Positions 37,268-59,512 are shown, numbered from the stretch's first letter. The stretch: DNA of 64,000 bases from an archaeon (GCA_043822105.1 JBDRCD010000003.1:870-64869), one strand, 5' to 3'. Numbers and translations are program-made. The notes: generated by a model not told the origin, from the sequence alone.

Positions 37268-37313
37268 AAAATAGAAAGCATTAAAAGAAATAGATAATTT
37301 TAGAATATTGTTT

Positions 37314-37387: not shown

Positions 37388-37388
37388 T

Positions 37389-44760: not shown

Positions 44761-44761
44761 T

Positions 44762-45340
44762 TTACATGCTCAATATTTCATTTAAAGTTATATTTCTGTG
44801 GCGTATCTCTTCTGCTCTTCTTTTGTACTGCTCAAAAGGAACGCTGTACTCAGCTTCCTTGTCTGCCTCATTCCATCCTTGCTTGAATGCTTTAATGACA
44901 TTCCAATTGGTGTCTATATTATTGTTCAGATTGCTCTGCTTTACTGCTTGCCATCTATCAAAGTAGTCTTCCATCTTTTCCTTGTAAATCCTGAAAAGGA
45001 TATCTCTTGAATCTCTGTTATGTGGATTTATAAACAAAGATATCTTCAGCAGCTTCTCCTCTACTTCATCATTACCTTGACTTTCTGCGTTGGCCATAAT
45101 GTACTTTGAGAATCCTGAATCATGATAGAGCGTGGTTCTTCCTTGTTGGAGCAATTTCACTATTTTGACATATCGGTCAACTACTGAAGGAAAATCATCA
45201 GCAAGCAATTTATCTGCGATTGAATACTCCTCTTTTTGTATATGATATTTTATCTTTTGCTCTCTTGTCAGATTCTCATAACTAATTTCTCTCTTTCTGT
45301 TTTTGATTTTCTTTTCTATCCCGCCTGGTTCTGATATCAT
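44762..45340 (-). CDS. TPR-like protein, paralog 3, with the GGIEKKIKNR N-terminal motif
   Basis: MISEPGGIEKKIKNRKREISY... Confidence 0.6.
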   Translation of the reverse strand: MISEPGGIEKKIKNRKREISYENLTREQKIKYHIQKEEYSIADKLLADDFPSVVDRYVKIVKLLQQGRTTLYHDSGFSKYIMANAESQGNDEVEEKLLKISLFINPHNRDSRDILFRIYKEKMEDYFDRWQAVKQSNLNNNIDTNWNVIKAFKQGWNEADKEAEYSVPFEQYKRRAEEIRHRNITLNEILSM

Positions 45341-46251: not shown

Positions 46252-46252
46252 T

Positions 46253-47143: not shown

Positions 47144-48495
47144 GGCTTCACCTGATACTTTTCATAGAAATCTGCTTTTCCGCTTGTTATCTCATCAAGT
47201 GTGTATCTGGACTTTTTAGCATAGGCGCTGTCTTTTGCTCGTTCTCCCTGCTCAACTGTCATAGGTGGACCCCATAAGAATGCTTTCTCACAAATCATGT
47301 CTTCAGTGTTTTTAAAATCATTGGTAAGCACACTATTGAGAAGTTTATATTCATCTTCAGTAACTTTCTCGAATTGATTCATGGTATCTGTCGCTAACAA
47401 ATCCTTTTTTGGCATTGAAACGACATTTTTTTTCCTTCCCTGTTTGAGGAATGCATTATACGTGCTCACAATTTCAGCTATGGTCTCATGACTTATCAAA
47501 TTATAATTATTGTCTCCTCTGTATTTGTGAGTATTCTTTAGAATATCATCAAGCTTATTTTTCATTCTTAAAAATGTTTGATAATCTTCATTCTGATCAA
47601 CAGGCAAAGTCTTTGTCATCTTTGGTCCTTCACTTACATCTCTATAGAAGTCCTCTGTAGACTGGTAAGCAAAGTCTTCAAGATACTTTCCTTTTGGGAG
47701 TGTTTCAGGAGCCACTTTTGCGATGGCTCTCATCAAGATGTATTTAGTACCATCATCAACATCCAGTTTGTTGATTTCCTGCATTGCAAATTCAAAGTAG
47801 TCATATTTATCATCCCATAATGCATGAGGTGTTTGATGACTTGGATGCAATAACTGGAAGTACACAACTCCAATTGCAAATCTATCTGTCTGTGGTGTGA
47901 AAAGTTTTCCTTTTTGCTTTCCCGAGTTCTCCATTAGTTCGAAACTTCTATATCCTTCTGTGCTCTGATAACTGTATGTCATTTCTTCATTTGTTGCAGT
48001 ACCAAAATCAGATACCTTGTAGATTTTTCCTACACGAAGTATATTTGATGATTTTCCATCTCTGTGAAAAAGTCCCTTCTTATGTAAAGCTACATACCCT
48101 CTCAGTGTATGTCTTATTATTTTCTTTGCAGTTGCAGGGTCCATTACTTTTCCTTCTGTAATTAAATCATCAAGAATATCATCAACACTTTCATCTGCTT
48201 TCTCCATTAGAACTCCATAATATTTGCCAAATCTCAAAGGTTCATCGTCAAATATCCTTATTATATGTTCATGAGGTCCTACAATTCTTTTTACTCTGTA
48301 AGCTCTCTCACACTCTTCTTTTCCTGTTGGTCTTGTTGGAATCTTAAGAAAAAGTTCCATATTAGTGCTTGTTTCATAGACTTCTACAAGTGCTGTTCGA
48401 TTCCAGATGGTGATATCTATATCGTTTTTTGAGAATCTTTCACTCTTCTTGATAAGACTCCTGATATTCATTTCAAGCTTTCTTTTCGAACTCAC
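47131..48495 (-). CDS. Eukaryotic-like Ser/Thr protein kinase with a ~160-aa C-terminal extension
   Basis: Catalytic loop LFHRDGKSSNIL and SDFGTA (DFG). No clear Gly-rich loop. Confidence 0.75.
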   Translation of the reverse strand: MSSKRKLEMNIRSLIKKSERFSKNDIDITIWNRTALVEVYETSTNMELFLKIPTRPTGKEECERAYRVKRIVGPHEHIIRIFDDEPLRFGKYYGVLMEKADESVDDILDDLITEGKVMDPATAKKIIRHTLRGYVALHKKGLFHRDGKSSNILRVGKIYKVSDFGTATNEEMTYSYQSTEGYRSFELMENSGKQKGKLFTPQTDRFAIGVVYFQLLHPSHQTPHALWDDKYDYFEFAMQEINKLDVDDGTKYILMRAIAKVAPETLPKGKYLEDFAYQSTEDFYRDVSEGPKMTKTLPVDQNEDYQTFLRMKNKLDDILKNTHKYRGDNNYNLISHETIAEIVSTYNAFLKQGRKKNVVSMPKKDLLATDTMNQFEKVTEDEYKLLNSVLTNDFKNTEDMICEKAFLWGPPMTVEQGERAKDSAYAKKSRYTLDEITSGKADFYEKYQVKPWHK

Positions 48496-49379
48496 TTTGG
48501 AATCACCCCGTATAATAGTCCTGTTGCATTATCTCCTTTCATACTGTTCATGCTTACGTCATAGTCTTCTTTCTCCATTGTTTCTACTATCTTTTTTATC
48601 TCCACAGGATTGTTTATCCTGTCTATGAAGGTTTTTTCTATGTCTTCCAACCTGTTCGAACTGATAATATCAAGCATCTCTCTCTGTGTTACTGTCTTTG
48701 TGACTCCATCTGTGAATAGTCCAATTACCTGATTTTGTTTTGGTCTTATTTTATGCATATCAATTTTTAATCCAGAACCTTTTCCCAAATAACTTGTAAG
48801 TCCAAGTATTGAGCCTATTACTTGTTTTTTTGTAGGTGATAGCTTTTCTGCATATTCTGGGTAATGATGATGCTCATCTGTTACTTTTTCTACATATCTT
48901 TCTCCTTCCAAATTGAAAAGTGCAACCATTCCATCACCGACATGTGCTATGTAGCCTGTTTTTTTTGGAATAAAAAGGATGTCAATTGTGGTTCCTCCTT
49001 TATCCTCAAGAAAACTAACTTTTTTGTTTTCCATCATTGCATGTAGAGCATAGTTTGTATCGCTTATGGTTTCTTCAAGAATTGAAGGTATATTTTCTAA
49101 ACTCAGCTCTTTATTTTGAATATTTTCATAAGTTTCATTTAGTTCATTCACTATCATATCTACTGCGAACTTACTGCAGAATTTGCCACCTTCATATCCA
49201 CCCATTCCGTCTGCAACAACATAGATTCCTTTATCAACATCATAATAATAATTATCTTGATTTTCTTCTCTGTTTCCAATCTCAGAGAATGCAATGACAT
49301 GAGGAACTGCTTCTCGTTGTATAATTTTTGGTGTTCCCAACAATTCTATAATATTCTTTGCGTTTTTAATGAAGTTCAT
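48492..49379 (-). CDS. PP2C-family Ser/Thr phosphatase
   Basis: NQDNYY, VADGMGGYEGG, LFTDGV and GDNATGLL motifs. ATGA overlaps on both sides. Confidence 0.8.
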   Translation of the reverse strand: MNFIKNAKNIIELLGTPKIIQREAVPHVIAFSEIGNREENQDNYYYDVDKGIYVVADGMGGYEGGKFCSKFAVDMIVNELNETYENIQNKELSLENIPSILEETISDTNYALHAMMENKKVSFLEDKGGTTIDILFIPKKTGYIAHVGDGMVALFNLEGERYVEKVTDEHHHYPEYAEKLSPTKKQVIGSILGLTSYLGKGSGLKIDMHKIRPKQNQVIGLFTDGVTKTVTQREMLDIISSNRLEDIEKTFIDRINNPVEIKKIVETMEKEDYDVSMNSMKGDNATGLLYGVIPK

Positions 49380-51820
49380 TTTTTTATTACCTCTGCATCA
49401 AAAGTACTGAATTCTTTCATTCCTTCTACCTGTTCCATATGCATTTCTCCTTTTTCATGGAATATTGCATAGAGCTTATCTGGCTCTTGCGCTGCCATTA
49501 TGACATTCTTGTTAGGCATCCATATATTTGCATCTTGAAGATCAGAGTCTTTAAGTTCATAGTAGATAGAAGGCTTTTCTGCAAACAAATTCTTTTTGTT
49601 CTTGAAATTCTCTACTTTTATCCCTTCTTCAGTAAGGGTTGCTACTTGAAATCCTCTGTTGTCTATGTGAATAAAATCAAATGAATCATATCTTGTTTCA
49701 AATGATACTGGGTTAAACTTTCCTTCCAAGTCGACAGCTACAACGCCTTCTCCATTTTCGGTTGTGTAAAACAACACTTTTTCTATCTCAGAAGTTTTTT
49801 GTACAGCACCAATGTTTTCTTCTGAAGTGTAGATTTCTTCCATTATCTCATCGTCGAAAAGACTGACTTTGTTGTTGGAAGTTACTAGTATTTTTCCCTG
49901 ATAGGGTGTGAGTGAAATTATATCATCTTCAACTCTTTGGAGATCAAAGAATTCATTTGAGTCCCTGTTATACTTTGAGATGGTAGTCTCTCCATTTTCT
50001 TTTTTCAGGAAATAGATTTCATTATTGTTCACAACCATCTCTTCAAGCCTAAAATCAACATCCTCACTTGTTATAGGCTTTGACACATATGTAGGTGTTG
50101 AGTCATTGTTAATATCAAAAGTGAATATTCTGTACTCCATTGTCTTGTTACCATGTGGTCTTTCTGCGACAACAAATATTTCTTTATCAGATACTTTAAA
50201 TTCTCCGATTCCCATTTTTTGATGCTCTCTTTCTCTCCAGTCATATTCTCCTTCTTCTCGTGGGATACTTACTGTATATTCGAGAGCTCTGTGTATGAGA
50301 TTATTCTTTAATGGAGTACCCAGAATAACTCTTTTCTGTTCGCTAGAAGGTAGGTATATTTCTGTGTCGATTGATTTTGCGAGTTTTGTTTTTAGTTTCT
50401 CTTCTTTATTACCTATCAATTCTTTCACAATATTCTTTGCACCTTCAATTATCACTTCGACTAAAGTTTCTTGCTCTTTCTTTTCAGGTATTTCAGGTAA
50501 TCCATCTGTTCTTGGATTTAATTCTTGTATATATCCTTTTTCAGCGAGTAAACTTGTAAGCTCTTGAACTATTTTTGTTCCCTTTCTAAAGTCTTTTTCA
50601 CATTCAGAACTTAAACTCTCCATAATTGCTACTTCAGGAGTTATTACTGTTCCTCCTTTTATTTCAAAATTAAGTCCTGCAAAACCATTAAATTCTTTGT
50701 GATAAATGCTTCCTCTGAAAGTTTTTTCTGGTTTTTCTGAGACTATTGCAGCAGTCAATGGTAGAAGAGTATTTCTAATTGTGTCAATGGAAGTAACTTC
50801 ATTTTTTTCTTTGAAATCAATACCATATTTTTTGACTTTGTCTAATAATAGATTTCCTATGTTTTCACTTTCTTCACCAAAAATGACTTGAAATGAAATA
50901 CTTCCAAACTTAATTTTTGTGTATTCAAAGGCCATGAATTCTCCGTGACTTCCATATATTGGTGGAGATTCTATTTCTCCTTTGTATACTTCCCCTGTGA
51001 AATCAAAATAAACGTCCTTTATTGCAGTCTTTAATCTTGCGACATCCGTATCTGCAGGTCCTATTATTCTGTTTACAGGAATATCTGCTTCTGCGGCGAA
51101 TACATAATTTGTGATATCAATGTCATTAACTAAATTAACAACTGTTCCTTGATAGCCTTTCAGGACACTGCCTAAATGTTTTAATCCAACTATGTTTCCC
51201 GGGAGAAGATTGAATCTGCTTATGTTAATTCCTGTTTCTTGCTGGAATCCGGTTATTATGGCTTCCAAATCTAGACTTTGTTTCAGAGCTGTATTCAAAT
51301 AAATCAACGCGTCTTGATAACTTTTTGGATTGCCTTTTATGGTTGTTCTGATTTTATTAACTACTTCTTGTTTACTTAGATTTTCGAGATTTTTTGCAAT
51401 ATTTTTGAAATTATATCTTGAAAACAAAACTAACATATCTGATTCTTCGCTGTTGTCTTTTGCATTCTCTGTTATTTCAGTCAAATCCTCTATTTGCCAA
51501 AATCTCTTAAATTTGACTTTTTCTACTATTTTGTCATAATCTTTCCATTCTAAAGAATTGAAGTCATTGTGAAACTCTATTGCTGCATCTTCAACACTAT
51601 TTCTAATCCAAACATTGACTTGTTTTATATTGGAATCTGGTTCTAGAATTAATGGCTCTAATCCTCTGACATAGTTTTTTCCGATATTGCCATAGCCTAT
51701 GACGTTTATTGTGTAATCTCTCCAAGAATCCTTTGTCTGAGCAGTACCTCTTTTAACCTGTTTTTCAAGAAATTCTAAAAACTCCTTTCTTTCTGTTTTG
51801 TCTTCTTCTTCGGCTCCCAA
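49376..51820 (-). CDS. LDH/MDH-like Rossmann domain fused to a ~380-aa beta-rich (propeller-like) C-terminal domain
   Basis: INVIGYGNIGKNY, NLVNDIDITN...NRIIGPADTDVARLK and GSHGEFMAFEY parallel the LDH/MDH motifs (GxGxxG, NPVD...RVIG..T.LD..R, GEHG). TTG start. Confidence 0.55.
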   Translation of the reverse strand: MGAEEEDKTERKEFLEFLEKQVKRGTAQTKDSWRDYTINVIGYGNIGKNYVRGLEPLILEPDSNIKQVNVWIRNSVEDAAIEFHNDFNSLEWKDYDKIVEKVKFKRFWQIEDLTEITENAKDNSEESDMLVLFSRYNFKNIAKNLENLSKQEVVNKIRTTIKGNPKSYQDALIYLNTALKQSLDLEAIITGFQQETGINISRFNLLPGNIVGLKHLGSVLKGYQGTVVNLVNDIDITNYVFAAEADIPVNRIIGPADTDVARLKTAIKDVYFDFTGEVYKGEIESPPIYGSHGEFMAFEYTKIKFGSISFQVIFGEESENIGNLLLDKVKKYGIDFKEKNEVTSIDTIRNTLLPLTAAIVSEKPEKTFRGSIYHKEFNGFAGLNFEIKGGTVITPEVAIMESLSSECEKDFRKGTKIVQELTSLLAEKGYIQELNPRTDGLPEIPEKKEQETLVEVIIEGAKNIVKELIGNKEEKLKTKLAKSIDTEIYLPSSEQKRVILGTPLKNNLIHRALEYTVSIPREEGEYDWREREHQKMGIGEFKVSDKEIFVVAERPHGNKTMEYRIFTFDINNDSTPTYVSKPITSEDVDFRLEEMVVNNNEIYFLKKENGETTISKYNRDSNEFFDLQRVEDDIISLTPYQGKILVTSNNKVSLFDDEIMEEIYTSEENIGAVQKTSEIEKVLFYTTENGEGVVAVDLEGKFNPVSFETRYDSFDFIHIDNRGFQVATLTEEGIKVENFKNKKNLFAEKPSIYYELKDSDLQDANIWMPNKNVIMAAQEPDKLYAIFHEKGEMHMEQVEGMKEFSTFDAEVIKK

Positions 51821-51854
51821 TGCTCACACCGAACCTGTAATCTTGTCGACATTT

Positions 51855-51870
51855 AAATAGTTAACTATTT
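51855..51870. promoter_or_regulatory. Perfect 16-bp palindrome AAATAGTTAACTATTT in the 67-bp spacer between the 813-aa and 814-aa genes
   Basis: Overlaps a TATA-like tttaaata on the minus strand, about 35 nt upstream of the TTG start. Confidence 0.5.
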
Positions 51871-51887
51871 TTTAGTGACAAAAACTC

Positions 51888-54329
51888 TTAATCTACTCTT
51901 TGCCCTTCTAAAACAGCCATTAAGTCTATTTCATTCTCTAGAGAGTAAGCGCAGACCTGATTATCTTCAAAGAAGCAGTCTTTTGCACAGTATTTTCCTG
52001 TCTTTTTTTCCATCTCTTTCTTGATATCAAGTGATAACTGCAGGTCACCATTCATAATTCTTTCCTTAAATTCAACTGTTTTGTAAACTTCGTGCATGAC
52101 TTCACGTCTGTACCATTCGTGAGGTTCGATGATTGAAATCCCTTCATATTCTTGTTTTCTATAAGAATTTATATTGAGAAACTTTGGCTGATCTTCTTCA
52201 AAGTTAAGGAACTGGTCGTTGAAAGAGTTCTTATCCAGCATGACTATGATATTTCCTGTTTTATAGCCTTGTTCTTTCATGAATTTCTCAACCATCATTC
52301 CGTAGAATGTGACTTGTTTTTTGTAGTAAGTCTCCATTGTACTAATTTTTCTGTTTGTTTTTTTGTCGATAATAACTATATCATAAACATTATTATCATC
52401 TTTCAGAAAAAACAATGTATCTGGGTGAAAAGATATGGTAAAATCTTTATCTGTTATTGGATTATGTAGAGTATCTTCAAACAGTATCTCGCAGTAATGG
52501 TCAGAAGGAACCGGCTCGTCAACTCCCGGAATTAAGGTTAATGTCTCATAATGTACTAGTCCATCAAATGGTTGATAGGTAAGCTCATGTAATTTTGTAC
52601 CTCTGTGAGCTGCAATAGGTTCTCTTAGTATGTGGTCTAAAAATCTGTGAAACTCTCCTTCTCTACCCTTTTGTACAATTGGTTTTAGAATATCATAAGT
52701 ATCTAATCTCATTCCTCTGGCTATGACTCTTTGTCTAGCACAGTTGACATGTGCTGAAAGTTCAGAACCTCTGAAATCTGCCGAAAGATCCAGTTTCTCG
52801 GATTGTTCTGATAAGAAAGTTGCTTTCCTTCCAAAGAAATTCTCTGATTTCAAATCAAATATTGGTGTTTTTCCAGCAATGTATTCTTGCCATGGAATAA
52901 CTCTCTTATCTTCACTAGTTATATTGGCTTTTATGGTTCCTTCGAAGAACATTAGTTCGACAAGTCTAGGCTCAACTCTTATGTTACCTGAAGTTGTTCT
53001 TACCATGTATTTATTGACTATTTCAAGACCTCTTTTTGTTATGAATTTCGGAACAAGATCTGTCTGGTTAGGATGTCTTCCTTTTATGTTTTCTTCCAAT
53101 AGCACCCAAGGATATTCTTTTGATTGCTTGTATCTTATGATGTTTGCTTTTGGTACTTTTATTCTTGTATATTTCTTTGCATGATTTCCAGTCCATATCG
53201 ATTCGGCTGTCTGCAGAAATCCAGTAAGCTTATTTATTGCTATCCCAGAATGAATGCCGTGGGCTTCTTGTTTTCCTGAAAGAATGCCTTCGAATCCTCC
53301 AATGTACTGAATTGGAATGTTGAGGCCGGAAAACTTAATGGCCTGTTTTATTATGTCAGAAGAGGCGCTGGTCTTTTCCATGTATAGAGGCAGTCCTTCC
53401 AGGTCATAATTGTTAATCATGTTCTTTATACTTGGCTCCAGAATCTCAAGGTATTTTTTCCATTTTACGGCCATCACCATCTTTCCGAGTTTTACAAGTC
53501 GGGCATGATGTTTTACAAACTCATCAACAGTTGTTAGTTTAGGTCTGTACACATCTTTTTTGAAATCAGCAGGACTCTTTGTGACTGATTTTTTTATGGG
53601 CTTAACATCTAACAGCCTTTCCCGATACCTGAATGTGGGGATAGAATTATCAGCGGGCTTTGTCAGTGATCCTATGGCGACCGCTCCAACTTTCTCAATA
53701 ATTTCTTTATACTCATTATATAGTACTTCATCTTCCTTTAACTCATACAATGATAATCTTTTGAAATCATTATGAGCATACAAATTTTCGAAAGTATATT
53801 TTTTCAGATCTTCAGCCAGAATATCTTCCAGTTTTATATTTCCTTCATTATCTCTTTTAATCAGTGGAACAAAGGTCCATGGTTGCATGAACATCAGAAC
53901 TATTTTATCAAGAAATTCAGGATCGAGTGTTTTAGCGATATCCAGAAGAGAATTTGTGAATCTGAATTCAGGTGAATAAGGGTCCAATCCGTCCCTTAGG
54001 CCATGTTCATCGATACTCAAGCCATTGGTTGGTATTATTATTTTATCTTCAAAGAATTTTTGTTCATTTTTCAGTTTTTCATACAACTTTCTCTCTGCGA
54101 ACCTAAACTTTTTCATTCGCCCGATTACTTGGGGCTCGAATGCTTTTACAATAATCATTTCCAGCAGGTTTATCATCTCTGCATTTTCCTTTGGATCGGC
54201 AGCAAAGGTGTTTAGATATGGCAGGAAATCTATGGATGTCCAAATGTTTTCCTTATCAAAAACATCAGAAAGCATATTGAACAGTGTATACTGTTGTTTA
54301 ACTATGTGAATGTTGTCAACACTTGGCAT
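51888..54329 (-). CDS. Large protein: ~530-aa unknown N-terminal region plus a Cas4/RecB-like PD-(D/E)xK nuclease C-terminal domain with Cys residues suggestive of an Fe-S cluster
   Basis: LSAHVNCARQ (N-terminal Cys), GTKLHEL, ISFHPD, YDIVIIDKK (D/ExK), KQVTFY (QxxxY) and KYCAKDCFFEDNQVCAY (three C-terminal Cys). No P-loop seen. Confidence 0.55.
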   Translation of the reverse strand: MPSVDNIHIVKQQYTLFNMLSDVFDKENIWTSIDFLPYLNTFAADPKENAEMINLLEMIIVKAFEPQVIGRMKKFRFAERKLYEKLKNEQKFFEDKIIIPTNGLSIDEHGLRDGLDPYSPEFRFTNSLLDIAKTLDPEFLDKIVLMFMQPWTFVPLIKRDNEGNIKLEDILAEDLKKYTFENLYAHNDFKRLSLYELKEDEVLYNEYKEIIEKVGAVAIGSLTKPADNSIPTFRYRERLLDVKPIKKSVTKSPADFKKDVYRPKLTTVDEFVKHHARLVKLGKMVMAVKWKKYLEILEPSIKNMINNYDLEGLPLYMEKTSASSDIIKQAIKFSGLNIPIQYIGGFEGILSGKQEAHGIHSGIAINKLTGFLQTAESIWTGNHAKKYTRIKVPKANIIRYKQSKEYPWVLLEENIKGRHPNQTDLVPKFITKRGLEIVNKYMVRTTSGNIRVEPRLVELMFFEGTIKANITSEDKRVIPWQEYIAGKTPIFDLKSENFFGRKATFLSEQSEKLDLSADFRGSELSAHVNCARQRVIARGMRLDTYDILKPIVQKGREGEFHRFLDHILREPIAAHRGTKLHELTYQPFDGLVHYETLTLIPGVDEPVPSDHYCEILFEDTLHNPITDKDFTISFHPDTLFFLKDDNNVYDIVIIDKKTNRKISTMETYYKKQVTFYGMMVEKFMKEQGYKTGNIIVMLDKNSFNDQFLNFEEDQPKFLNINSYRKQEYEGISIIEPHEWYRREVMHEVYKTVEFKERIMNGDLQLSLDIKKEMEKKTGKYCAKDCFFEDNQVCAYSLENEIDLMAVLEGQRVD

Positions 54330-54381
54330 AACTACTTGAGAATAAGAAAAAGTATAAAAAGTTTGCCTTATTCTGCAAAAC
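54330..54381. promoter_or_regulatory. 52-bp divergent promoter region with an inverted repeat AGAATAAG-N19-CTTATTCT around a TATA-like gtataaaaag
   Basis: Inverted-repeat arms lie at 54340..54347 and 54367..54374. This is the only spacer between the two divergent operons. Confidence 0.6.
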
Positions 54382-57300
54382 GTGAAAGAGAATAATTCAT
54401 CAGAGGAGATTAGAGTAGTAACTCATTTAGCTACAGATAGAAGTTTGATTGGTTCTTTGAATTCTAATGTAAAGATTGCTTCTTGGGCTGTAGATACAGA
54501 AAATAACAGATTTGTTGATCCACGAACAGATGTTCTAAGCATACCTTTGAGATTTCCGACAGACCATTTTAAGGAGGAAGGTAGACCAGAAGCACAGGAT
54601 CTTATAAGAGCGAGAATTACTGAATTTAGAGACATGACAAAGAAGGATCTTCAGACAATAATTGACAAGAAGAATGCTATGCTTGAACAAAGAAATCCTG
54701 GAACAAAGGCTGCAAAGAAGATAGAAGATGAGATAAAAGAGATAAGAAAAGTACAATACAGAATTAATAGATTGATAAAAAGAGGTGAAACAGCGAGGAA
54801 TAAATACGGGGACTGGGTTTATGTTATTCAATCTCCTCACTTGAGCAATATTCAGCTGACGACAGTAAACGATCTTTATCATAACAATAAACACTACACC
54901 AAAACAACTGATCTCATAAAACTTGATGTTGGATTTCCATACAATGAAATGTTATTTGTAGATGGGAAGAGTAATACTATAGGGAAACACTTTGCAACAC
55001 TATCAGATAAAAAACACTACAATCTTGATACATTTGTCAACAGCTCTATGATGGCAAGCGATTTGGAAACAACCGAATGGCAAAAACTTATCTACTCTCC
55101 AGAAGACAAGCTGAAAAGCACTCTGGAACTGATAAAAGAGTACAAGCTTGCAGAGAATGAAGAGAATCTGACAGAACTTATGGAAAACACAAAGTCTCAG
55201 ATTCTTGAATTGGTGAGAAAGAAAAAAGATAGTGTAAGAGAAGAACAGATTGTTATTGGCACTATAGCTTATGCTGAGAATCCTCTCAAGTTTTGGCAGG
55301 AAAAGGACCTGTCGCAGTTAAAGACTTTCCTGATAACGGATATGCCTGTTGAAGATTCCCTTGATGTTGATATACCTTTAATTGGGGGAACCATAAACCC
55401 AGAGATATACAAAGTCAGCAACCATGAAGAAATAATGAAAGTCATGAGCGATATAACTCAGGAATACAATCCCTTCTCAATGACTGGGCATTTCTACTTT
55501 AAATTTGACAATGGAAAACCAGGGGAACTTGGTTTGGAATATAATACCGGAATAGATGGTGAAAAACCAGAATATCAATGGGGGTTGCTTAACAAATTTG
55601 TACAGATAAGAATTGCAAGAGGAAGGCTTGATCTTGACCCGGCGCTGTATTACCAACATTATGCTCCATGGACTGTGAATAATAAGCTAGATACTGTTTT
55701 TGAAGACCTAACAGGTGTGTTTGAGAAGAAAGAGATGACTCATACAGAGCTAGAGGAAAGAATACAGACAATACTTAAAGGGGGTATTTCCGAGAAAGAG
55801 AAACTTGAATTTGGAAGGCTTCTGCATAAGTATGCTGTAAGGGATTCAATAAAATCTCTGATAAATGGGGTGATTCTTCTTCCTGAAGTGGCTGCATTGT
55901 CTATGCTTTATAGGACTCCATTTCACAGAGTATGCTCAACTGACAAGAAAAGACTTTCTGAAGAATACTGGAATAAGAGAAGTCTGGAAGATACACTGAC
56001 TTTCCGTTATGAACATCCAAGGAATGAGAAACTTACTATGAGTTTTCAACTGTCAAAAACCTACAAGAAAGCAAAGTCTGGATTCATTGAATGGGAGGAT
56101 TTCAAGATATCGGATTGGCATGAAAGAATTTTAAAACACTACGGAAACTTTGGTAATTATAAAAAAGGATTCCAGAAAGCAAGGCTGATATATCTTCATC
56201 CTCATGTCAAAGCTCTCAAAGATTTCTTTGCTGATGATGAGAATGCCATGCGAATATTTAATTTGAATTTTGACGATAGAAAAAGCAGGATAAGAATGTA
56301 CAAAGGACTGGAAGCGATAGTAGAATATCCTTTGTTTAAACTATTGGATCTTTCAACTCAGAAACTTTACAATTATATGACTAACAATGGGCATCCAGAT
56401 TTGGAAGAGAAATTCAGCAGGGAATTTGGGCTTGATCTCACGGAATCCAACATAAGGAAGTATCATAATGATATAGTGAGATATTTCAGAAACATTGGTA
56501 AGGGCTTGAAGAATGAAGAAGTTCTCAACACCTACAAGAATTTCATACTGGTAAAAGAAAGCGATACTATAGATGATTTCTGCAATAGAATAGAGGAATT
56601 CAACTTTGGGACTGTTATGGGAAAGATGGATGCTATATCAATTGGAAACCATAAGTTTGGAGGAGTGATTGACGGCCAGATGATGAATTTTGGATTTTCA
56701 GACCCTAAATCCAATAAAGGCAAGAAGAATGAAGCTGCAAAAGAGATTCTCCAACTAGTTATGGACAAGGTATTGAGAGAGAAAGATTATGCTTCTGCAT
56801 TAAAGGCTGTTAGAGACATTTCTTGGGGGATACAGAACAGTATGATAGAAGAAGACGCTCTACAGTACAAGATAGAAGCGAAGAGGAATTTTTCAGAGTA
56901 TTCTTCAGCGGCTACGCTATGGGCAAAAGATGAATATGTTAAGAGGAGAATAAAGAAGGGAGAGATTATGATATACCATGCAGACACTAATGAACTGCTT
57001 GCAGATATGCTAGGAATCGCAGTTGATTTCTCGTCTGGACAGCCAATGTATTTTTCTACAGATAATGGCAAAAATATGCTAGAGAAAGATTTTGAAGATG
57101 AGTTGGAAGATAACTATAAGATGAAAAAGAAAGGCAAAATAAGAGAGTTGGTAGAATGCGTTGTGCCAACGACTCTAAAGCAATACCCTATTCTTTTTGA
57201 AGAGATGTCGGACATGGAGTTTGACTATGATGAACAGATAAGAGAACAGCAGGTAATGAACAGGGTTATATGTGGTGTAGCCACCGATGAACATATAGAT

Positions 57301-57405
57301 ATGCTGGTGAAACTATACAAAAAAATATCTCTTAATTATGAGCCTCCGAAGAAACAACCCAAACAAAAAATAGAGAATCCTGCTCAGATAACCATTGGTT
57401 TCTAA
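54382..57405 (+). CDS. Highly diverged family-B DNA polymerase-like protein. Exonuclease motifs are present. Canonical polymerase motifs are not recognisable.
   Basis: MASDLETTEW (Exo I, DxE), FYFKFDNG (Exo II-like), KYAVRDSIKSL (Exo III, YxxxD) and LLPEVAALSMLYRTPFHRV (like ...ELSRLSG...). In the motif A, B and C positions I find LIYLHPHV, YKGLEAIVEYPLF and VKESDTIDDF. GTG start. Confidence 0.6.
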   Translation: MKENNSSEEIRVVTHLATDRSLIGSLNSNVKIASWAVDTENNRFVDPRTDVLSIPLRFPTDHFKEEGRPEAQDLIRARITEFRDMTKKDLQTIIDKKNAMLEQRNPGTKAAKKIEDEIKEIRKVQYRINRLIKRGETARNKYGDWVYVIQSPHLSNIQLTTVNDLYHNNKHYTKTTDLIKLDVGFPYNEMLFVDGKSNTIGKHFATLSDKKHYNLDTFVNSSMMASDLETTEWQKLIYSPEDKLKSTLELIKEYKLAENEENLTELMENTKSQILELVRKKKDSVREEQIVIGTIAYAENPLKFWQEKDLSQLKTFLITDMPVEDSLDVDIPLIGGTINPEIYKVSNHEEIMKVMSDITQEYNPFSMTGHFYFKFDNGKPGELGLEYNTGIDGEKPEYQWGLLNKFVQIRIARGRLDLDPALYYQHYAPWTVNNKLDTVFEDLTGVFEKKEMTHTELEERIQTILKGGISEKEKLEFGRLLHKYAVRDSIKSLINGVILLPEVAALSMLYRTPFHRVCSTDKKRLSEEYWNKRSLEDTLTFRYEHPRNEKLTMSFQLSKTYKKAKSGFIEWEDFKISDWHERILKHYGNFGNYKKGFQKARLIYLHPHVKALKDFFADDENAMRIFNLNFDDRKSRIRMYKGLEAIVEYPLFKLLDLSTQKLYNYMTNNGHPDLEEKFSREFGLDLTESNIRKYHNDIVRYFRNIGKGLKNEEVLNTYKNFILVKESDTIDDFCNRIEEFNFGTVMGKMDAISIGNHKFGGVIDGQMMNFGFSDPKSNKGKKNEAAKEILQLVMDKVLREKDYASALKAVRDISWGIQNSMIEEDALQYKIEAKRNFSEYSSAATLWAKDEYVKRRIKKGEIMIYHADTNELLADMLGIAVDFSSGQPMYFSTDNGKNMLEKDFEDELEDNYKMKKKGKIRELVECVVPTTLKQYPILFEEMSDMEFDYDEQIREQQVMNRVICGVATDEHIDMLVKLYKKISLNYEPPKKQPKQKIENPAQITIGF

Positions 57406-57445
57406 TCTCGCAAAACATATAAACCATTGAATTTTACAATTGCTC

Positions 57446-59512
57446 ATGATTATAAATTCTCTCAAGCTGAAAAACATCCGTTCCTACAAAAAAGAAGAAA
57501 TAGTTTTTCCAGAAGGGTCAATAATGCTTTCAGGTGACATTGGTGCCGGGAAAACAACAATTCTTTTATCCATAGAGTTTGCTCTTTTTGGCATAATGAG
57601 GGGACAGCTAACAGGCGGAAGTCTTCTGAGGCATGGTACAAGTGAAGGATACGTTGAGCTGACATTTACCATCGACGATAAAAAAATAGTCATTAAAAGA
57701 TATCTTAAGAGAAAAAATAAAACCGTTGCACAGGATTCAGGTCACATTATTATTGGCGAAGAAAAATATGAACTGACACCCGTTGAGTTGAAGTCAAAAA
57801 TACTTGAACTGATAGGCTACCCAGACGAGCTTCTGACAAAGTCAAAATCTCTAATATTCAGATACACAGTTTACACGCCTCAGGAGGAGATGAAGCAGAT
57901 ACTTCTGGAAAGTCAGGACGAAAGACTTGAAGTTATCAGAAGGATATTCAACATTGATAAATACAAGCGCATAAAAGACAACACTTTGAATTATCTCAAG
58001 CATTTGAGAATAAAAAAAACTGAGTTTGAAACCAGAATTGAAGACTTGGAAGAGAAAAAGAAAGAGTATTCCAACTACAATGAAAAAATAAAGACCATAA
58101 AAGAAGAAGCTGCAAAAATACAGCTTTTGATTGATGATATTACAAAGAAATTCAATGAACAGCAGTCAAAGGTTAAAGTTCATGAAGAAAAGATAAAAGA
58201 AATAGAATCATTGAAAGGACAGATTGAAATCAAAACCAGCAACATCAGCAACAACAAAACAAATGTCAAAAACAGTGATCAAGAACTGAAAGAACTCAAC
58301 AGTGCAATTCTCAAACTGGATGAAGAACTGAAAGACGTGACAATGATTGACATAAAAAAGCTGAAAAAGCAAAGAGAAGAGTTAGTTAAAGAAAAAGAGA
58401 AACTGTCCGACAACCTTGAAAAAATAAGAGATAGGGAAGCAGAGTTCACAGCAAAAAAGAACAGCTCCAAAGAAATCATGAAAAAACTACTGTCACTCGA
58501 CAAATGTCCTGTCTGCGAACAGATGGTTGATTCTAATCACAAAAAACACGTCAATGAAAGAGAAAATAAAAACATTGTCAATGTTGAAGAACAGCTATTA
58601 AAACTCCAGGATTTGAAAAGAAAGCGAAAAAGTGCTCTTGATGAACTGGAAAAAAAGATAGGTGACCTGACAAACAACATCAACAGGAACGAGCTGATAT
58701 CCATAAAAAAAGAACAGCTTGACAGCAACATAAAAGAAAAAGAACAGATAATGAAGGATCAGATTCTCACAAAGTCCGTCATTGAAAAAGAAGAACAGGA
58801 CGTAATTGACATAAAAAAACAGTTGGAATCACACAGGGACATTGAAAAGATATATTTACAGGAAAAACAGACATTGGAATTGATAAGATCCCAGAAACAG
58901 TCACAGGACATAAGAAGGGCAGAGCAGCTTCGGGAAGTAAAAACTTTGGAAGAAGTAAAACTGAGAGTCAAAGAGGAGATAAACAAAAAAGAAGAGTCAA
59001 AGAAAAGTCTGGTCTATGTCAACGAAGTGCAGAACTGGATACACAAGTTTTTCATGAACGTAATCTACATGATGGAAAAACAAATCATGCTGACAATCTA
59101 TCAGGAATTCAACGAGTATTTTCAGGAATGGTTCAATATTCTAATTGAGGAAGAGACCCTCAATGTGAGGCTTGACGAGACATTCACACCTCTGATAGAA
59201 CAGAACGGCTATGACACATACATTGCAAATCTTTCAGGCGGAGAAAGAACCTCAGTTGCACTGGCCTACAGACTGGCGCTGAACAAAGTTATCAACGATT
59301 TCATGGGACTTATAAAAACAAAGGACCTGCTGATACTGGATGAGCCGACAGACGGATTCTCATCTGACCAGCTGGACAAGATAAGGGATCTTTTGGAGAT
59401 AATAAACATCAGACAGGTAATCCTTGTTAGCCATGAGCCAAAGCTAGAAAGCTACGTTGATCATATTCTAAGAATACATAAAAAAGAACATCTAAGCAAA
59501 GTAATTGCTTGA
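57446..59512 (+). CDS. Rad50/SbcC-like SMC ATPase with a short coiled coil and a CxxC zinc hook
   Basis: GDIGAGKTT (Walker A), YTPQEEM (Q-loop), LDKCPVCEQ (hook), LSGGERTSVALAYRLAL (signature), LLILDEPTDGF (Walker B), ILVSHEP. Confidence 0.8.
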   Translation: MIINSLKLKNIRSYKKEEIVFPEGSIMLSGDIGAGKTTILLSIEFALFGIMRGQLTGGSLLRHGTSEGYVELTFTIDDKKIVIKRYLKRKNKTVAQDSGHIIIGEEKYELTPVELKSKILELIGYPDELLTKSKSLIFRYTVYTPQEEMKQILLESQDERLEVIRRIFNIDKYKRIKDNTLNYLKHLRIKKTEFETRIEDLEEKKKEYSNYNEKIKTIKEEAAKIQLLIDDITKKFNEQQSKVKVHEEKIKEIESLKGQIEIKTSNISNNKTNVKNSDQELKELNSAILKLDEELKDVTMIDIKKLKKQREELVKEKEKLSDNLEKIRDREAEFTAKKNSSKEIMKKLLSLDKCPVCEQMVDSNHKKHVNERENKNIVNVEEQLLKLQDLKRKRKSALDELEKKIGDLTNNINRNELISIKKEQLDSNIKEKEQIMKDQILTKSVIEKEEQDVIDIKKQLESHRDIEKIYLQEKQTLELIRSQKQSQDIRRAEQLREVKTLEEVKLRVKEEINKKEESKKSLVYVNEVQNWIHKFFMNVIYMMEKQIMLTIYQEFNEYFQEWFNILIEEETLNVRLDETFTPLIEQNGYDTYIANLSGGERTSVALAYRLALNKVINDFMGLIKTKDLLILDEPTDGFSSDQLDKIRDLLEIINIRQVILVSHEPKLESYVDHILRIHKKEHLSKVIA

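What the first reader, a model, noticed from the sequence alone, without database searches (positions are those of the whole stretch)
51888..54329. 813-aa protein: Cas4/RecB-like Fe-S nuclease domain attached to a ~530-aa region with no recognisable motifs
**C-terminal third**
- It carries, in the right order, the elements of Cas4/AddB-type PD-(D/E)xK nucleases.
- These are an upstream Cys (VNCARQ), GTKLHEL, FHPD, IIDKK, QxxxY (KQVTFY), and three closely spaced C-terminal Cys (C-x3-C-x8-C).

**N-terminal two-thirds**
- It has no Walker A and no motif I can name.
- Cas4-like nucleases are normally small stand-alone proteins or are fused to helicases or Cas1.

This architecture, as first gene of the kinase/TPR operon and divergent from the PolB-like gene, is unusual.
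Basis: partly seen in the sequence, partly recalled or inferred. Interest (0 to 1): 0.62.

Follow-up and report, generated by a model that had tools for sequence, protein, structure and literature searches.

The report
Cas4-like nuclease paired with PolB-like exonuclease
This archaeal gene encodes a Cas4/RecB-type iron-sulfur DNA nuclease joined to a large domain with no known relatives, and it always sits head-to-head with a very divergent DNA-polymerase-B-like exonuclease gene, which suggests an undescribed two-nuclease DNA-processing pair in tiny DPANN archaea.

Summary
The 813-aa ORF is real but lies on the minus strand (51888-54329). Its C-terminal ~300 residues are a Cas4/RecB-type "iron-staple" PD-(D/E)xK nuclease. 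H581, E614, D637, D655-x-K657 and Q672 are invariant in 40 homologues sharing 17-50% identity. Y676 is conserved in 39 of 40 and each of the four Cys in 37 of 40. Weak Pfam and PHROG hits, an in-register alignment to SIRV2 gp19, and Foldseek matches of an AlphaFold model to Cas4 SSO0001, ACE1 and viral Cas4-like exonucleases all agree.

The N-terminal ~510 residues are conserved family-wide but match nothing by sequence or fold.

The kinase/PP2C/TPR genes accompany no homologue, and terminator-like and promoter-like signals separate them from the target.

The conserved unit is the divergent pair. In every testable locus the gene is head-to-head with a homologue of the 1007-aa neighbour, usually across a 52-66-bp spacer with one central TATA-like box. 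That neighbour is a divergent family-B polymerase homologue (E=4e-9). Its 3'-5' exonuclease motifs are invariant, and its polymerase motifs are unrecognisable.

The family appears restricted to Woesearchaeota-like DPANN archaea. The most likely role is a two-nuclease DNA-end or flap-processing complex. This is inferred, not shown.

The parts
51888..54329 (-). Target gene: 813-aa protein made of an orphan N-terminal region plus a C-terminal Cas4/RecB-like iron-staple nuclease
   Evidence: ORF and translation. Family of 68 clusters at 50% identity. N-terminus conserved in homologues.
52800..54329 (-). N-terminal region, about aa 1-510. Conserved across the whole family, with no detectable relative by sequence or fold
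   Evidence: Occupancy is above 0.8 along its length except a variable insert at aa 181-210. No hit in Pfam, NCBIfam, PADLOC, PHROGs or PDB. The AF2 model is mostly confident here, yet Foldseek finds no credible match. No internal repeats and no homology to the partner.
51891..52787 (-). C-terminal PD-(D/E)xK (Cas4/RecB-like) nuclease domain, aa 515-813
   Evidence: PHROG 1706 (Cas4-like) at E=6e-4 over aa 573-706. 4 of 40 members hit Pfam PDDEXK_1 and 4 of 40 hit phrog_1706. hhalign to SIRV2 gp19 is in register. Foldseek: Cas4 SSO0001 probability 0.96, ACE1 0.84, archaeal-virus Cas4-like exonuclease 1.00.
52740..52742 (-). C530, the first (upstream) cluster-ligand Cys
   Evidence: Conserved in 37 of 40; coordinate verified.
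52587..52589 (-). H581 of G-T-x-x-H, invariant
   Evidence: 40 of 40; coordinate verified.
52419..52490 (-). E614 (motif I) to D637 (motif II, FHPD)
   Evidence: Both invariant in 40 of 40; coordinates verified. They align to E and D of SIRV2 gp19.
52302..52367 (-). D655-x-K657 (motif III) and Q672-x3-Y676 (QxxxY helix)
   Evidence: D655, K657 and Q672 in 40 of 40; Y676 in 39 of 40. Coordinates verified. In the model, D655 and K657 lie in strand 648-658, and Q672 and Y676 in helix 667-686.
51951..51989 (-). C781-x3-C785-x7-C793, the three C-terminal cluster-ligand Cys
   Evidence: Each conserved in 37 of 40. Family mode is C-x2-C-x7-C. All four ligand positions are non-Cys or gapped together in 3 members. 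Coordinates verified.
54330..54381 (.). 52-bp divergent spacer with a single central TATA-like element (GTATAAAAA, 54352-54360), 26-27 nt from both start codons. Putative shared bidirectional promoter giving leaderless mRNAs
   Evidence: Sequence. The same layout, a 52-66-bp spacer with a central near-palindromic TATA-like box, is seen in L001, L003, L005, L009 and L010. Promoter function is inferred, not shown.
54382..57405 (+). Partner gene: 1007-aa highly divergent family-B-polymerase homologue with intact DEDDy 3'-5' exonuclease motifs and unrecognisable polymerase motifs
   Evidence: Head-to-head with the target in every testable locus. Profile versus PDB hits Thermococcus and Pyrococcus PolB at E=4e-9. 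2 of 10 members hit PF03104. Motif inspection.
55060..55068 (+). Partner ExoI (D227-x-E229)
   Evidence: Invariant in 10 of 10; coordinate verified.
55489..55509 (+). Partner ExoII (H370-[N/F]-x3-F375-D376)
   Evidence: H, F and D invariant in 10 of 10; coordinate verified. Aligns to ExoII of E. coli Pol II.
55831..55845 (+). Partner ExoIII (Y484-x3-D488)
   Evidence: Invariant in 10 of 10; coordinate verified.
51880..51884 (-). T5 run 3 nt after the target's stop codon (archaeal terminator-like)
   Evidence: Sequence. Termination is inferred.
51852..51859 (-). TATA-like box (TATTTAAA) about 35 nt upstream of the next gene's TTG start (51820), suggesting a separate promoter for the 814-aa/PP2C/kinase/TPR operon
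   Evidence: Sequence. Inferred.
57440..59512 (+). Rad50-like SMC ATPase with a CPVC zinc hook (58505-58516), 34 nt downstream of the partner. Linked to the pair only in this lineage
   Evidence: NCBIfam Rad50 3e-40 (below cut-off), PADLOC LmuB 1e-32. It has only two Cys, forming CPVC at aa 356-359. Present next to the pair only in L001.

Best explanation
The gene encodes the Fe-S 'iron-staple' nuclease subunit of a two-protein DNA-processing module specific to Woesearchaeota-like DPANN archaea.

Shown:
(1) The C-terminal ~300 aa have the catalytic and Cys signature, and the predicted fold, of Cas4/AddB/Exo5-type PD-(D/E)xK nucleases.
(2) The N-terminal ~510 aa are a conserved, family-specific region with no detectable relatives.
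(3) The gene is always head-to-head with a PolB homologue. That homologue's DEDDy 3'-5' exonuclease motifs are invariant, and its polymerase motifs A, B and C are not recognisable.
(4) The two genes diverge in step and faster than their neighbours.

Inferred: both genes are fired from one central TATA box as leaderless mRNAs, and the two proteins form a complex. The orphan N-terminal region serves as the docking or DNA-handling scaffold. The Cas4-like domain degrades or nicks the 5'-ended single strand, which is the known polarity of Cas4 and AddB. The PolB-derived exonuclease trims the 3'-ended strand, with the dead polymerase body acting as a DNA-end or primer-template clamp.

Together they would resect or trim DNA ends, flaps or gaps during recombinational repair or replication-fork processing. 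This would be a motor-less functional analogue of the two-nuclease AddAB/RecBCD logic. In the window's own lineage the pair sits beside a Rad50-like zinc-hook ATPase, which fits a double-strand-break context.
For: Nuclease identity:
- Invariant H581, E614, D637, D655-x-K657 and Q672, with Y676 in 39 of 40 and four co-varying Cys, in 40 homologues.
- PHROG Cas4-like hit at E=6e-4 on the window protein; 4 of 40 members hit it, best 1.9e-6.
- Pfam PDDEXK_1 in 4 of 40 members and Exo5 in 1.
- The family profile reaches stand-alone proteins that pass the PDDEXK_1 gathering score.
- hhalign to SIRV2 gp19 is in register.
- AF2 model with pLDDT 75.7 and a beta-beta-beta-alpha-beta core carrying the motifs.
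- Foldseek top hits are ACE1, Cas4 SSO0001 (probability 0.96), MGME1, Exo5, AdnAB and many viral Cas4-like exonucleases.

Pairing:
- The partner is upstream and divergent in all 10 distinct genome loci, in 6 of 6 testable metagenome loci, and in L024.
- Only these two families recur in at least 3 of the loci when flanking ORFs are clustered.
- A spacer of 52-66 bp with one central TATA-like box occurs in six loci.
- Between the window and L001, identities are 48.7% (target) and 48.4% (partner), against 65-93% for neighbours.
- Pairwise identities of target and partner correlate at r=0.88.

Partner:
- PolB structures are hit at E=4e-9.
- ExoI, II and III are invariant, whereas no Asp is invariant in the palm region.

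Context:
- Chromosomal, among tRNA synthetase and ribosomal-protein genes, with native GC content.
- Not found on viral contigs.
- Rad50-like hook protein adjacent in two lineages.
- 5'-3' ssDNA exonuclease activity and Fe-S binding are established for Cas4 and AddB (PMC3466216).
- A Cas4-family nuclease working as a heterodimer with a co-encoded partner has a precedent in ACE1-pAgo (PMC12094033).
Against: - No biochemical, expression or interaction data exist. The only sequencing runs found are DNA.
- Physical interaction is inferred from gene arrangement and co-divergence alone, and the correlation has no phylogenetic control.
- All Foldseek PDB E-values are weak (at least 0.06) because the query is an 813-aa multidomain model.
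- The Cys-cluster region of the model has low confidence (pLDDT 50-63).
- The partner's polymerase inactivity is judged from degenerate motifs in a 10-sequence alignment. Every member keeps some acidic residue near the motif-C position, and 3 of 10 keep 'DTxDD', so residual polymerase activity cannot be excluded.
- No helicase or motor is linked, so how ends would be unwound is unexplained.
- The Rad50-like neighbour is absent from most loci.
- The fast divergence of both genes is also typical of defence genes.
Confidence: 0.45

Rival explanations
1. The pair is a two-gene anti-virus or anti-plasmid defence system. The Cas4-like nuclease and the PolB-derived exonuclease together destroy invading DNA, or generate DNA fragments or guides, as solo-Cas4 and ACE1-pAgo are thought to do.
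For: - Both genes evolve faster than flanking housekeeping genes.
- Distribution is narrow, with 68 clusters at 50% identity.
- DPANN solo-Cas4 genes have been proposed to act in uncharacterised defence pathways (PMC5704561).
- ACE1, a top structural match, is a defence accessory nuclease.
- In the window, the pair lies between a LmuB/Rad50-like ATPase and a kinase with weak MADS6 and PD-T4-6 hits.
Against: - No PADLOC model hits either protein.
- The pair is embedded among ribosomal-protein and tRNA-synthetase genes, not defence islands, and is syntenic between window and L001.
- No other defence gene recurs next to it.
- No restriction-modification, CRISPR or toxin partner is conserved.
- No self/non-self discrimination component is evident.
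Confidence: 0.2
2. The partner is an active but extremely divergent DNA polymerase. The target is its dedicated flap, primer or end-processing nuclease, in a Dna2/Exo5-like role in lagging-strand maturation or gap repair.
For: - The partner retains the overall PolB length and order, with exonuclease, palm-sized middle and thumb matches.
- The window clade keeps a 'DTxDD' motif-C-like string, and all members keep an acidic residue nearby.
- PolB2 and primer-independent PolBs are active despite degenerate motifs (PMC7544198, PMC8764526).
- Dna2 and Exo5 are iron-staple nucleases used in replication (PMC3466216).
Against: - No invariant Asp exists at the motif A or motif C positions, although the exonuclease residues are 100% conserved in the same alignment.
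- Motif B (KxxxNSxYG) is unrecognisable.
- No Pfam polymerase-domain hit in any of the 10 members, only the exonuclease domain in 2.
Confidence: 0.15
3. The N-terminal region is a degenerate, motif-less helicase-like (RecA-fold) scaffold. The protein would then be an AddB/RecC-style subunit, and the pair a highly derived AddAB/AdnAB-type machine in which a PolB derivative replaces AddA.
For: - Foldseek lists long co-linear but low-probability alignments to AdnA (612 columns), RecB (823 columns) and DinG (156 columns, probability 0.84).
- The model shows a beta-alpha-beta-alpha segment at aa 313-460.
- AddB has the same order: large N-terminal scaffold, then an iron-staple nuclease (PMC3466216).
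Against: - There is no Walker A or B.
- hhalign to RecB finds nothing.
- TM-scores are 0.10-0.13 and probabilities 0.04-0.16 for the long alignments.
- 510 aa is too short for four SF1 subdomains.
- The tool did not report which part of the query matched DinG.
Confidence: 0.1
4. The pair is a domesticated remnant of a mobile element or virus, for example a casposon-like or viral PolB plus Cas4-like nuclease module.
For: - PolB and Cas4-like nucleases are both common in archaeal viruses and mobile elements (PMC5704561).
- The best Foldseek hits come from the viral structure library, including large crAss-like phage proteins aligned over 570-880 columns.
Against: - No viral contig in IMG/VR encodes a relative.
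- No integrase, terminal repeats or other element genes recur.
- GC content is native and flanks are housekeeping genes.
- The crAss alignments have TM-scores of 0.10-0.16 and may be fragments of giant proteins.
- hhalign to crAss001 Gp70 is weak and to Gp45 null.
Confidence: 0.05
5. One reading: the nuclease is the first gene of, and works with, the downstream 814-aa/PP2C/Ser-Thr kinase/TPR operon.
For: Same strand, with only a 67-bp gap to the next gene.
Against: - None of the homologous loci carries these genes.
- A T5 run and a TATA-like box lie in the gap.
Confidence: 0.03

Closest known systems
Cas4 / solo-Cas4 (e.g. Sulfolobus SSO0001, PDB 4IC1; SIRV2 gp19)
   Same: PD-(D/E)xK RecB-type core with E, D, (D/E)xK and QxxxY motifs. 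One upstream and three C-terminal Cys form the 'iron staple'. It is a top structural match (probability 0.96) (PMC3466216). Solo-Cas4 is common in DPANN (PMC5704561).
   Different: The target is four times larger, with a 510-aa orphan N-terminal region. It does not reach the Pfam Cas_Cas4 or PDDEXK_1 thresholds. Cys spacing is C-x2/3-C-x7-C rather than the C-x2-C-x5-C I recall for Cas4 and AddB. There is no CRISPR or cas context. It is obligately paired with a PolB-like gene, a link not found when I searched the text of the Cas4 phylogenomics survey.
AddB of AddAB (also AdnAB, RecBCD)
   Same: A large subunit whose C-terminus is an iron-staple RecB nuclease that degrades the 5' strand. It is paired with a second subunit carrying the nuclease for the other strand, and it has enzymatically dead scaffold domains (PMC3466216; Foldseek lists AdnAB and RecBCD).
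   Different: There is no SF1 helicase-like N-terminus or Walker A. The partner is a PolB-derived DEDDy exonuclease, not a UvrD-type helicase-nuclease. No motor is present. This system is archaeal and DPANN-restricted.
ACE1-pAgo (APACE1) complex
   Same: A Cas4-family nuclease that functions as a heterodimer with a co-encoded, unrelated nucleic-acid enzyme that modulates it (PMC12094033). It is the top PDB structural match.
   Different: ACE1 is about 270 aa without a large N-terminal region. Its partner is an Argonaute, and its role is defence.
Dna2 / Exo5 / MGME1 iron-staple or related 5'-flap nucleases
   Same: The same nuclease superfamily, used with family-B polymerases in replication and repair. 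There is an Exo5 Pfam hit in one member, and Exo5 and MGME1 appear among the structural matches.
   Different: There is no SF1B helicase domain, so this is not Dna2. The N-terminal region is unrelated, and no sequence-level family membership is detected.
Inactivated or degenerate family-B polymerases (archaeal PolB2, Pol epsilon C-terminal half)
   Same: The partner is a PolB homologue with degenerate polymerase motifs, retained as a conserved protein (PMC2527604, PMC2669801, PMC7544198).
   Different: In PolB2 and Pol epsilon-C the exonuclease motifs are also lost. Here ExoI, II and III are invariant while the polymerase motifs are gone, which is the opposite pattern. No Pfam polymerase-domain hit occurs. 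The partner is obligately paired with a Cas4-like nuclease.
crAss-like phage PDDEXK nucleases
   Same: PD-(D/E)xK proteins of unknown role that are hallmark genes near replication genes (PMC10136315). The best BFVD hit is an 857-aa crAss-like protein (E=1.4e-4).
   Different: TM-scores are only 0.10-0.16. There is no sequence-level link to crAss001 Gp45, and only a weak one to Gp70. No relative occurs on viral contigs.

Membership tests
PD-(D/E)xK 'iron-staple' nucleases (Cas4/AddB/Exo5/Dna2 type) | Catalytic motifs in order: acidic motif I, D (motif II), (D/E)xK (motif III), QxxxY | tested here: met
   E614, D637, D655-x-K657 and Q672 are invariant in 40 of 40, and Y676 is in 39 of 40. They are in register with SIRV2 gp19.
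PD-(D/E)xK 'iron-staple' nucleases (Cas4/AddB/Exo5/Dna2 type) | One Cys upstream and three clustered Cys downstream of the nuclease core | tested here: met
   C530 plus C781, C785 and C793, each in 37 of 40, and lost together in 3 members. The arrangement is as described in PMC3466216.
PD-(D/E)xK 'iron-staple' nucleases (Cas4/AddB/Exo5/Dna2 type) | alpha-beta-beta-beta-alpha-beta restriction-endonuclease-like fold | tested here: met
   The AF2 model has strands 616-623, 628-634, 638-643 and 648-658, helix 667-686 and strand 690-701, with pLDDT 86-95. Foldseek hits are almost exclusively PD-(D/E)xK proteins: Cas4 at probability 0.96 and a viral Cas4-like protein at 1.00. The PDB E-values are individually weak.
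PD-(D/E)xK 'iron-staple' nucleases (Cas4/AddB/Exo5/Dna2 type) | Binds a [4Fe-4S] or [2Fe-2S] cluster and has metal-dependent nuclease activity | not testable with these tools
   This requires expression, UV-vis or EPR spectroscopy, and nuclease assays.
Cas4 sensu stricto (Pfam PF01930 / COG1468, CRISPR adaptation) | Scores above the family model threshold | tested here: not met
   No Pfam hit even at E up to 10 for the isolated C-terminal domain of the window protein or for full-length P0002 and P0003. None of the 40 members hits Cas_Cas4; 4 hit PDDEXK_1 weakly.
Cas4 sensu stricto (Pfam PF01930 / COG1468, CRISPR adaptation) | Adjacent to cas1/cas2 or a CRISPR array (CAS-Cas4) | tested here: not met
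   No repeat arrays occur in the window. No cas genes occur in any locus. At best it would be a 'solo' relative.
AddB | N-terminal SF1-helicase-like domains with a Walker A ATP-binding motif | tested here: not met
   No Walker A in 39 of 40 members. No helicase Pfam or NCBIfam hit. hhalign to RecB is null.
AddB | Partnered with an AddA (UvrD-type helicase-nuclease) gene | tested here: not met
   The conserved partner is PolB-like. No helicase recurs.
Dna2 | SF1B helicase domain C-terminal to the nuclease | tested here: not met
   The nuclease domain is at the extreme C-terminus, and there are no P-loop motifs.
Family B DNA polymerase (partner protein) | Homology to PolB, with ExoI (DxE), ExoII (Nx3FD) and ExoIII (Yx3D) | tested here: met
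   Profile versus PDB hits archaeal PolB at E=4e-9. PF03104 is hit in 2 of 10 members. The exonuclease motifs are invariant in 10 of 10.
Family B DNA polymerase (partner protein) | Polymerase motifs A (DxxSLYPS), B (KxxxNSxYG) and C (YxDTD) with invariant catalytic Asp | tested here: not met
   No invariant Asp occurs in residues 560-1007. Motifs A and B are unrecognisable, and 'DTxDD' occurs in only 3 of 10 members. Alignment uncertainty means residual activity is not excluded.
Lamassu (LmuA nuclease + LmuB SMC) | Nuclease effector consistently encoded with the LmuB-type SMC ATPase | tested here: not met
   The LmuB/Rad50-like gene is adjacent only in the window and L001. No PADLOC LmuA hit occurs.
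MADS (methylation-associated defence system) | mad1-8 gene set including a methyltransferase, with model scores above cut-off | tested here: not met
   Only weak kinase (mad6, 35 bits against a cut-off of 460) and SMC (mad3) similarities are seen. No methyltransferase is present, and these genes are not conserved with the target.

The most novel reading that the evidence does not exclude
The target and its partner form a previously undescribed, DPANN-specific, motor-less two-nuclease machine. In it, a family-B DNA polymerase has been exapted as a 3'-5' exonuclease and DNA clamp (polymerase dead, proofreading alive). It is obligately coupled to a Cas4-like Fe-S 5'-3' nuclease through a new-fold 510-aa domain. 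In genome-reduced Woesearchaeota it could stand in for the end-resection or flap-processing functions that other archaea assign to Mre11-Rad50/HerA-NurA or Dna2/Fen1.
Probability: 0.35. Interest if true: 0.72.

Novelty: new variant of a known kind. Interest (0 to 1): 0.6.

Why it matters
Cas4-family nucleases are known as small stand-alone proteins, as Cas1 or helicase fusions, as the AddB, Dna2 and Exo5 nuclease domains, and recently as Argonaute partners. An obligate pairing with a PolB derivative, through a large orphan domain, would add a new architecture and a new partnership to this family.

The partner would be a rare case of a family-B polymerase that kept proofreading but lost recognisable polymerase motifs. 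That is the reverse of PolB2 and the Pol epsilon C-terminal half, and it bears on how polymerases are recycled as scaffolds.

DPANN archaea have drastically reduced genomes, and their DNA repair and replication toolkits are poorly understood. A lineage-specific, conserved nuclease pair among housekeeping genes is a concrete, testable candidate for how they process DNA ends, or alternatively for a compact new defence module.

The N-terminal 510 aa may also be a new fold.

Tried and rejected
- Direct profile searches of the protein against Pfam, NCBIfam, PADLOC and PDB sequences found nothing. Only PHROGs gave a weak hit.
- HMM profiles of the family (A3, A4) against PDB sequences found nothing.
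- The first AF2 model, from a 3-sequence alignment, was unusable at pLDDT 35.
- The word-index homologue search found only 3 proteins with the single query and with the 40-sequence profile. The exhaustive search and a central-member query were needed.
- tblastn of the nuclease domain against phage genomes gave no match.
- The IMG/VR scan found no relative.
- hhalign of target against partner found no homology, and the target has no internal repeats.
- hhalign against E. coli RecB was null. Against crAss001 Gp45 it was null and against Gp70 weak.
- hhalign of the partner against E. coli Pol II aligned only ExoII, so the palm could not be mapped.
- I looked for a third conserved gene. The 332-aa (L001) and 335-aa (L023) genes after the partner are unrelated, and clustering of flank ORFs found none.
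- I looked for CRISPR arrays and tandem repeats and found none.
- I looked for Mre11-like, canonical PolB or HerA motifs elsewhere in the window and found none.
- No RNA-seq runs hold this sequence; only DNA metagenomes from biofilm and groundwater do.
- Literature searches found no description of this pairing. The library is limited to open-access papers.
The script machine was lost.

Full report
**1. Observation**

The ORF listing and translation show an ATG-to-TAA ORF of 813 aa at 51888-54329, on the minus strand. The three C-terminal Cys are C781-x3-C785-x7-C793. There is no Walker A. The protein itself hits nothing in Pfam, NCBIfam, PADLOC or PDB sequences. PHROGs gives one weak but apt hit: phrog_1706, 'CRISPR/Cas system associated', at E=6e-4 over aa 573-706.

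**2. Host and general context**

The window is chromosomal DNA of a low-GC (~35%) archaeon. It carries Cbf5, ArgRS, GluRS and SerRS genes and intron-containing tRNAs. The only named homologues are from Candidatus Woesearchaeota metagenome-assembled genomes. Sequencing runs holding the sequence are biofilm and groundwater metagenomes. The target and partner have the same GC as their surroundings.

**3. The family**

The word-index search found only two homologues, at 49% and 28% identity. The exhaustive profile search found 68 clusters at 50% identity, 43 of them at E<1e-30 and most 700-850 aa long. In a 40-member alignment at 17-50% identity to the window protein, S522, H581, Y612, E614, D637, D655, K657 and Q672 are invariant. 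Y676 is conserved in 39 of 40, and each of the four Cys in 37 of 40. The three members lacking Cys lack all four ligand positions (in one of them three of the positions are gaps).

**4. Nuclease identity**

Several independent lines agree.
- 4 of 40 members reach Pfam PDDEXK_1 (best 1.7e-4) and one reaches Exo5.
- 4 of 40 reach phrog_1706 (best 1.9e-6), and three others reach exonuclease PHROGs.
- The family profile also retrieves short stand-alone proteins, and two of them pass the PDDEXK_1 gathering score.
- hhalign of the C-terminal profile to SIRV2 gp19 aligns E614, D637, D655-x-K657 and Q672-Y676 in register (pairwise E=0.0018). gp19 itself scores as PDDEXK_1 and Cas_Cas4 in Pfam. The Cas4 paper cites it as a Mg2+-dependent nuclease that shares the nuclease and four-Cys motifs (PMC3466216).
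- An AlphaFold2 model from a 15-sequence alignment has mean pLDDT 75.7 and pTM 0.61. D637 lies at the start of strand 638-643. D655 and K657 lie in strand 648-658. Q672 and Y676 lie in helix 667-686, which is the canonical PD-(D/E)xK layout.
- Foldseek against the PDB puts ACE1 first, followed by Cas4 SSO0001 (probability 0.96, TMt 0.38), then MGME1, Exo5 and AdnAB. Further down are other PD-(D/E)xK folds.
- Foldseek against BFVD returns dozens of 'PD-(D/E)XK' or Cas4-like exonucleases. These include an archaeal-virus '5' to 3' Cas4-like exonuclease' at probability 1.00 and TMt 0.47.

There are caveats. The PDB E-values are all at least 0.06. The Cys region of the model has low confidence. I could not measure distances because coordinates were not exposed. 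The 1+3 Cys arrangement around a RecB core defines the 'iron-staple' group of AddB, Cas4, gp19, Exo5 and Dna2, whose characterised members are 5'-3' ssDNA nucleases (PMC3466216).

**5. The N-terminal ~510 aa**

This region is present in every full-length member, with occupancy above 0.8 except a variable insert at aa 181-210. Its conserved blocks include DPYS (116-119), PLYMEKTS (314-321), IGGxxGI (343-349), RxEPR (451-455) and DFRGSE (518-523).

No library matches it in any of the 40 members. It has no internal repeats and no homology to the partner. The model is confident over most of it, with pLDDT 80-95 for aa 10-180 and 270-350. Even so, Foldseek finds no credible match.

There are faint hints of a helicase-like scaffold. 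These are long, low-probability alignments to AdnA and RecB, and a 156-column DinG match at probability 0.84 whose query position was not reported. Sequence comparison with RecB does not back them up. Few polar residues are invariant, so a structural, docking or DNA-handling role is more likely than catalysis. This is an inference.

**6. What is really conserved around it**

The downstream genes on the same strand are an 814-aa protein, a PP2C phosphatase, a Ser/Thr kinase and TPR proteins. They are absent from every homologous locus. The 67-bp gap after the target holds a T5 run 3 nt after the stop codon. It also holds a TATA-like box about 35 nt before the next start codon. The 'first gene of the kinase operon' reading is therefore rejected.

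By contrast, a homologue of the divergent 1007-aa gene lies immediately upstream, head-to-head, wherever upstream sequence exists. This holds in all 10 distinct genome loci, in 6 of 6 testable metagenome loci (some are duplicates of genome loci), and in L024. All-against-all clustering of flank ORFs finds only these two families recurring in at least 3 loci.

In six loci the spacer is 52-66 bp, with one central near-palindromic TATA-like box. In the window this box is at 54352-54360, and its centre is 26-27 nt from both start codons. That fits a shared bidirectional promoter and leaderless mRNAs, which is an inference.

Between the window and its closest relative, Cbf5 is 70% identical, ArsR 93% and the SMC-like protein 65%. 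The target is 48.7% and the partner 48.4%. Across 8 loci, pairwise identities of the two proteins correlate at r=0.88, with no phylogenetic control.

**7. The partner**

A 10-sequence profile hits Thermococcus and Pyrococcus family-B polymerases at E=4e-9. The match covers the exonuclease domain (KOD residues 184-406) and part of the thumb (616-677). Two members hit Pfam DNA_pol_B_exo1. ExoI (D227-x-E229), ExoII (H370...F375-D376) and ExoIII (Y484-x3-D488) are invariant.

The polymerase side differs. No Asp is invariant in residues 560-1007. Motifs A and B cannot be recognised, and a 'DTxDD' string at the motif-C position occurs in only 3 of 10 members.

The partner therefore looks like a PolB that kept proofreading and lost, or radically altered, polymerisation. 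This is the reverse of PolB2 and the Pol epsilon C-terminal half, where the exonuclease motifs are lost as well (PMC2527604, PMC2669801, PMC7544198). Residual polymerase activity cannot be excluded. PolB2 and primer-independent PolBs are precedents for activity with degenerate motifs (PMC7544198, PMC8764526).

**8. Mechanism**

The best-supported reading is a two-subunit nuclease module. In it, the Cas4-like domain handles 5'-ended single strands and the PolB-derived DEDDy site trims 3' ends. The dead polymerase body and the orphan N-terminal region provide DNA-end binding and subunit contacts.

The housekeeping context argues for repair or replication-associated end, flap or gap processing. 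So do the absence of the pair from viral contigs and the lack of any recurring defence partner. A Rad50-like ATPase with a CPVC zinc hook, next to the pair in two lineages, points the same way.

A defence role remains a serious rival. The genes diverge fast, DPANN solo-Cas4 genes have been linked to defence (PMC5704561), and ACE1-pAgo is a precedent (PMC12094033). I give 0.45 to the repair/processing-complex reading and 0.20 to defence. An active polymerase with a dedicated nuclease gets 0.15, and an AddB-like degenerate-helicase architecture gets 0.10. That last reading concerns the N-terminal fold rather than the role. A mobile-element remnant gets 0.05 and the kinase-operon reading 0.03.

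**9. Comparison with known systems and novelty**

The nuclease domain belongs to the iron-staple PD-(D/E)xK group by motifs, Cys pattern and fold. The protein is not Cas4 sensu stricto, because it has no model hit and no CRISPR context, is four times larger, and has x7 Cys spacing. It is not AddB, because it has no helicase-like N-terminus or Walker A and its partner is not AddA. It is not Dna2, because it has no helicase. Lamassu and MADS memberships fail on conservation and on scores.

I found no description of a Cas4-like/PolB-like pair in the Cas4 phylogenomics survey, the PolB diversity survey or the other papers I searched. The library covers only open-access papers. I rate the finding a new variant of a known kind. 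It combines a known nuclease domain with a new architecture and a new obligate partnership, plus an orphan N-terminal region that may be a new fold. Interest is 0.6.

Noticed in passing
window 57440-59512 (+): A 690-aa SMC-like ATPase lies 34 nt downstream of the PolB-like partner. Its only two Cys form 'CPVC' (aa 356-359; nt 58505-58516) in mid coiled coil, which is a Rad50-type zinc hook. It hits Rad50 (3e-40, below cut-off), ASRP, LmuB (1e-32) and mad3. No Mre11-like gene is seen in the window. It is conserved beside the pair only in L001.
   Followed up: partly
window 44116-51820 (-): A window-specific operon encodes an 814-aa protein, a PP2C phosphatase, a Ser/Thr kinase and three or four TPR proteins. 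The 814-aa protein has a weak LDH/MDH-like Rossmann hit at aa 187-383. The kinase has weak MADS6 and PD-T4-6 hits. The operon is absent from the syntenic locus L001, so it is probably an insertion or lineage-specific signalling module unrelated to the nuclease.
   Followed up: partly
window 40300-40412 (+), 42021-42142 (+), 29025-29180 (-): Rfam finds three tRNA genes spanning 113-156 nt, probably intron-containing as is typical of archaea. ARAGORN, run with bacterial settings, missed them and found only tRNA-Ala (37313-37388) and tRNA-Trp (38361-38446).
   Followed up: no
window 59924-60847 (+): A bacterial-type tRNA dihydrouridine synthase DusB (TIGR00737, 315 bits, above the 293 cut-off) lies between the Rad50-like gene and the ArsR-type regulator. 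The syntenic locus L001 has a 121-aa ORF at this position instead, so it may be a horizontally acquired insertion.
   Followed up: no
L010, L011, L012 (CAYRRQ010000009.1, CAZOKS010000005.1, CAYQFL010000025.1): Three loci carrying the pair are labelled 'uncultured Methanosarcinales archaeon' (binchicken TPA assemblies). Their proteins resemble those of Woesearchaeota MAGs; for example, the L011 and L013 (UBA119) partner N-termini are nearly identical. The taxonomic label is probably unreliable.
   Followed up: partly
proteins P0060, P0065-P0068 (alignment A4): Stand-alone 316-442-aa PDDEXK_1-type nucleases are the nearest outgroup of the family's nuclease domain. Some share the C-x2-C-x7-C spacing, and they carry their own Cys-rich N-terminal extension (a possible Zn finger). 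Their genomic context could not be looked up.
   Followed up: no
BFVD hits A0A7M1RXA3_1, A0A7M1RRN3_1, A0A8S5TT56_1, A0A516MIP5_1: Large crAss-like phage proteins or fragments (820-900 aa) align with the model over 570-880 columns. The best has E=1.4e-4, better than any small nuclease, but TM-scores are only 0.10-0.16. It is unresolved whether the N-terminal region has viral counterparts. crAss001 Gp45 and Gp70 gave no support.
   Followed up: partly
L008/L018, L009, L024 (proteins P0004, P0071, P0072; about 941-946 aa): One subclade of the family is about 130 aa longer than the rest. In L008 and L009 the stop-to-stop frames of target and partner overlap, so the true starts and the spacer there are uncertain. 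L009 appears to use a GTG start at 7992.
   Followed up: partly
window 54330-54381 and equivalent spacers in L001, L003, L005, L009, L010: A single near-palindromic TATA-like element is centred about 26 nt from both divergent start codons. This looks like a clean natural example of a shared bidirectional archaeal promoter with leaderless transcripts in both directions, and it is worth 5'-end mapping.
   Followed up: partly
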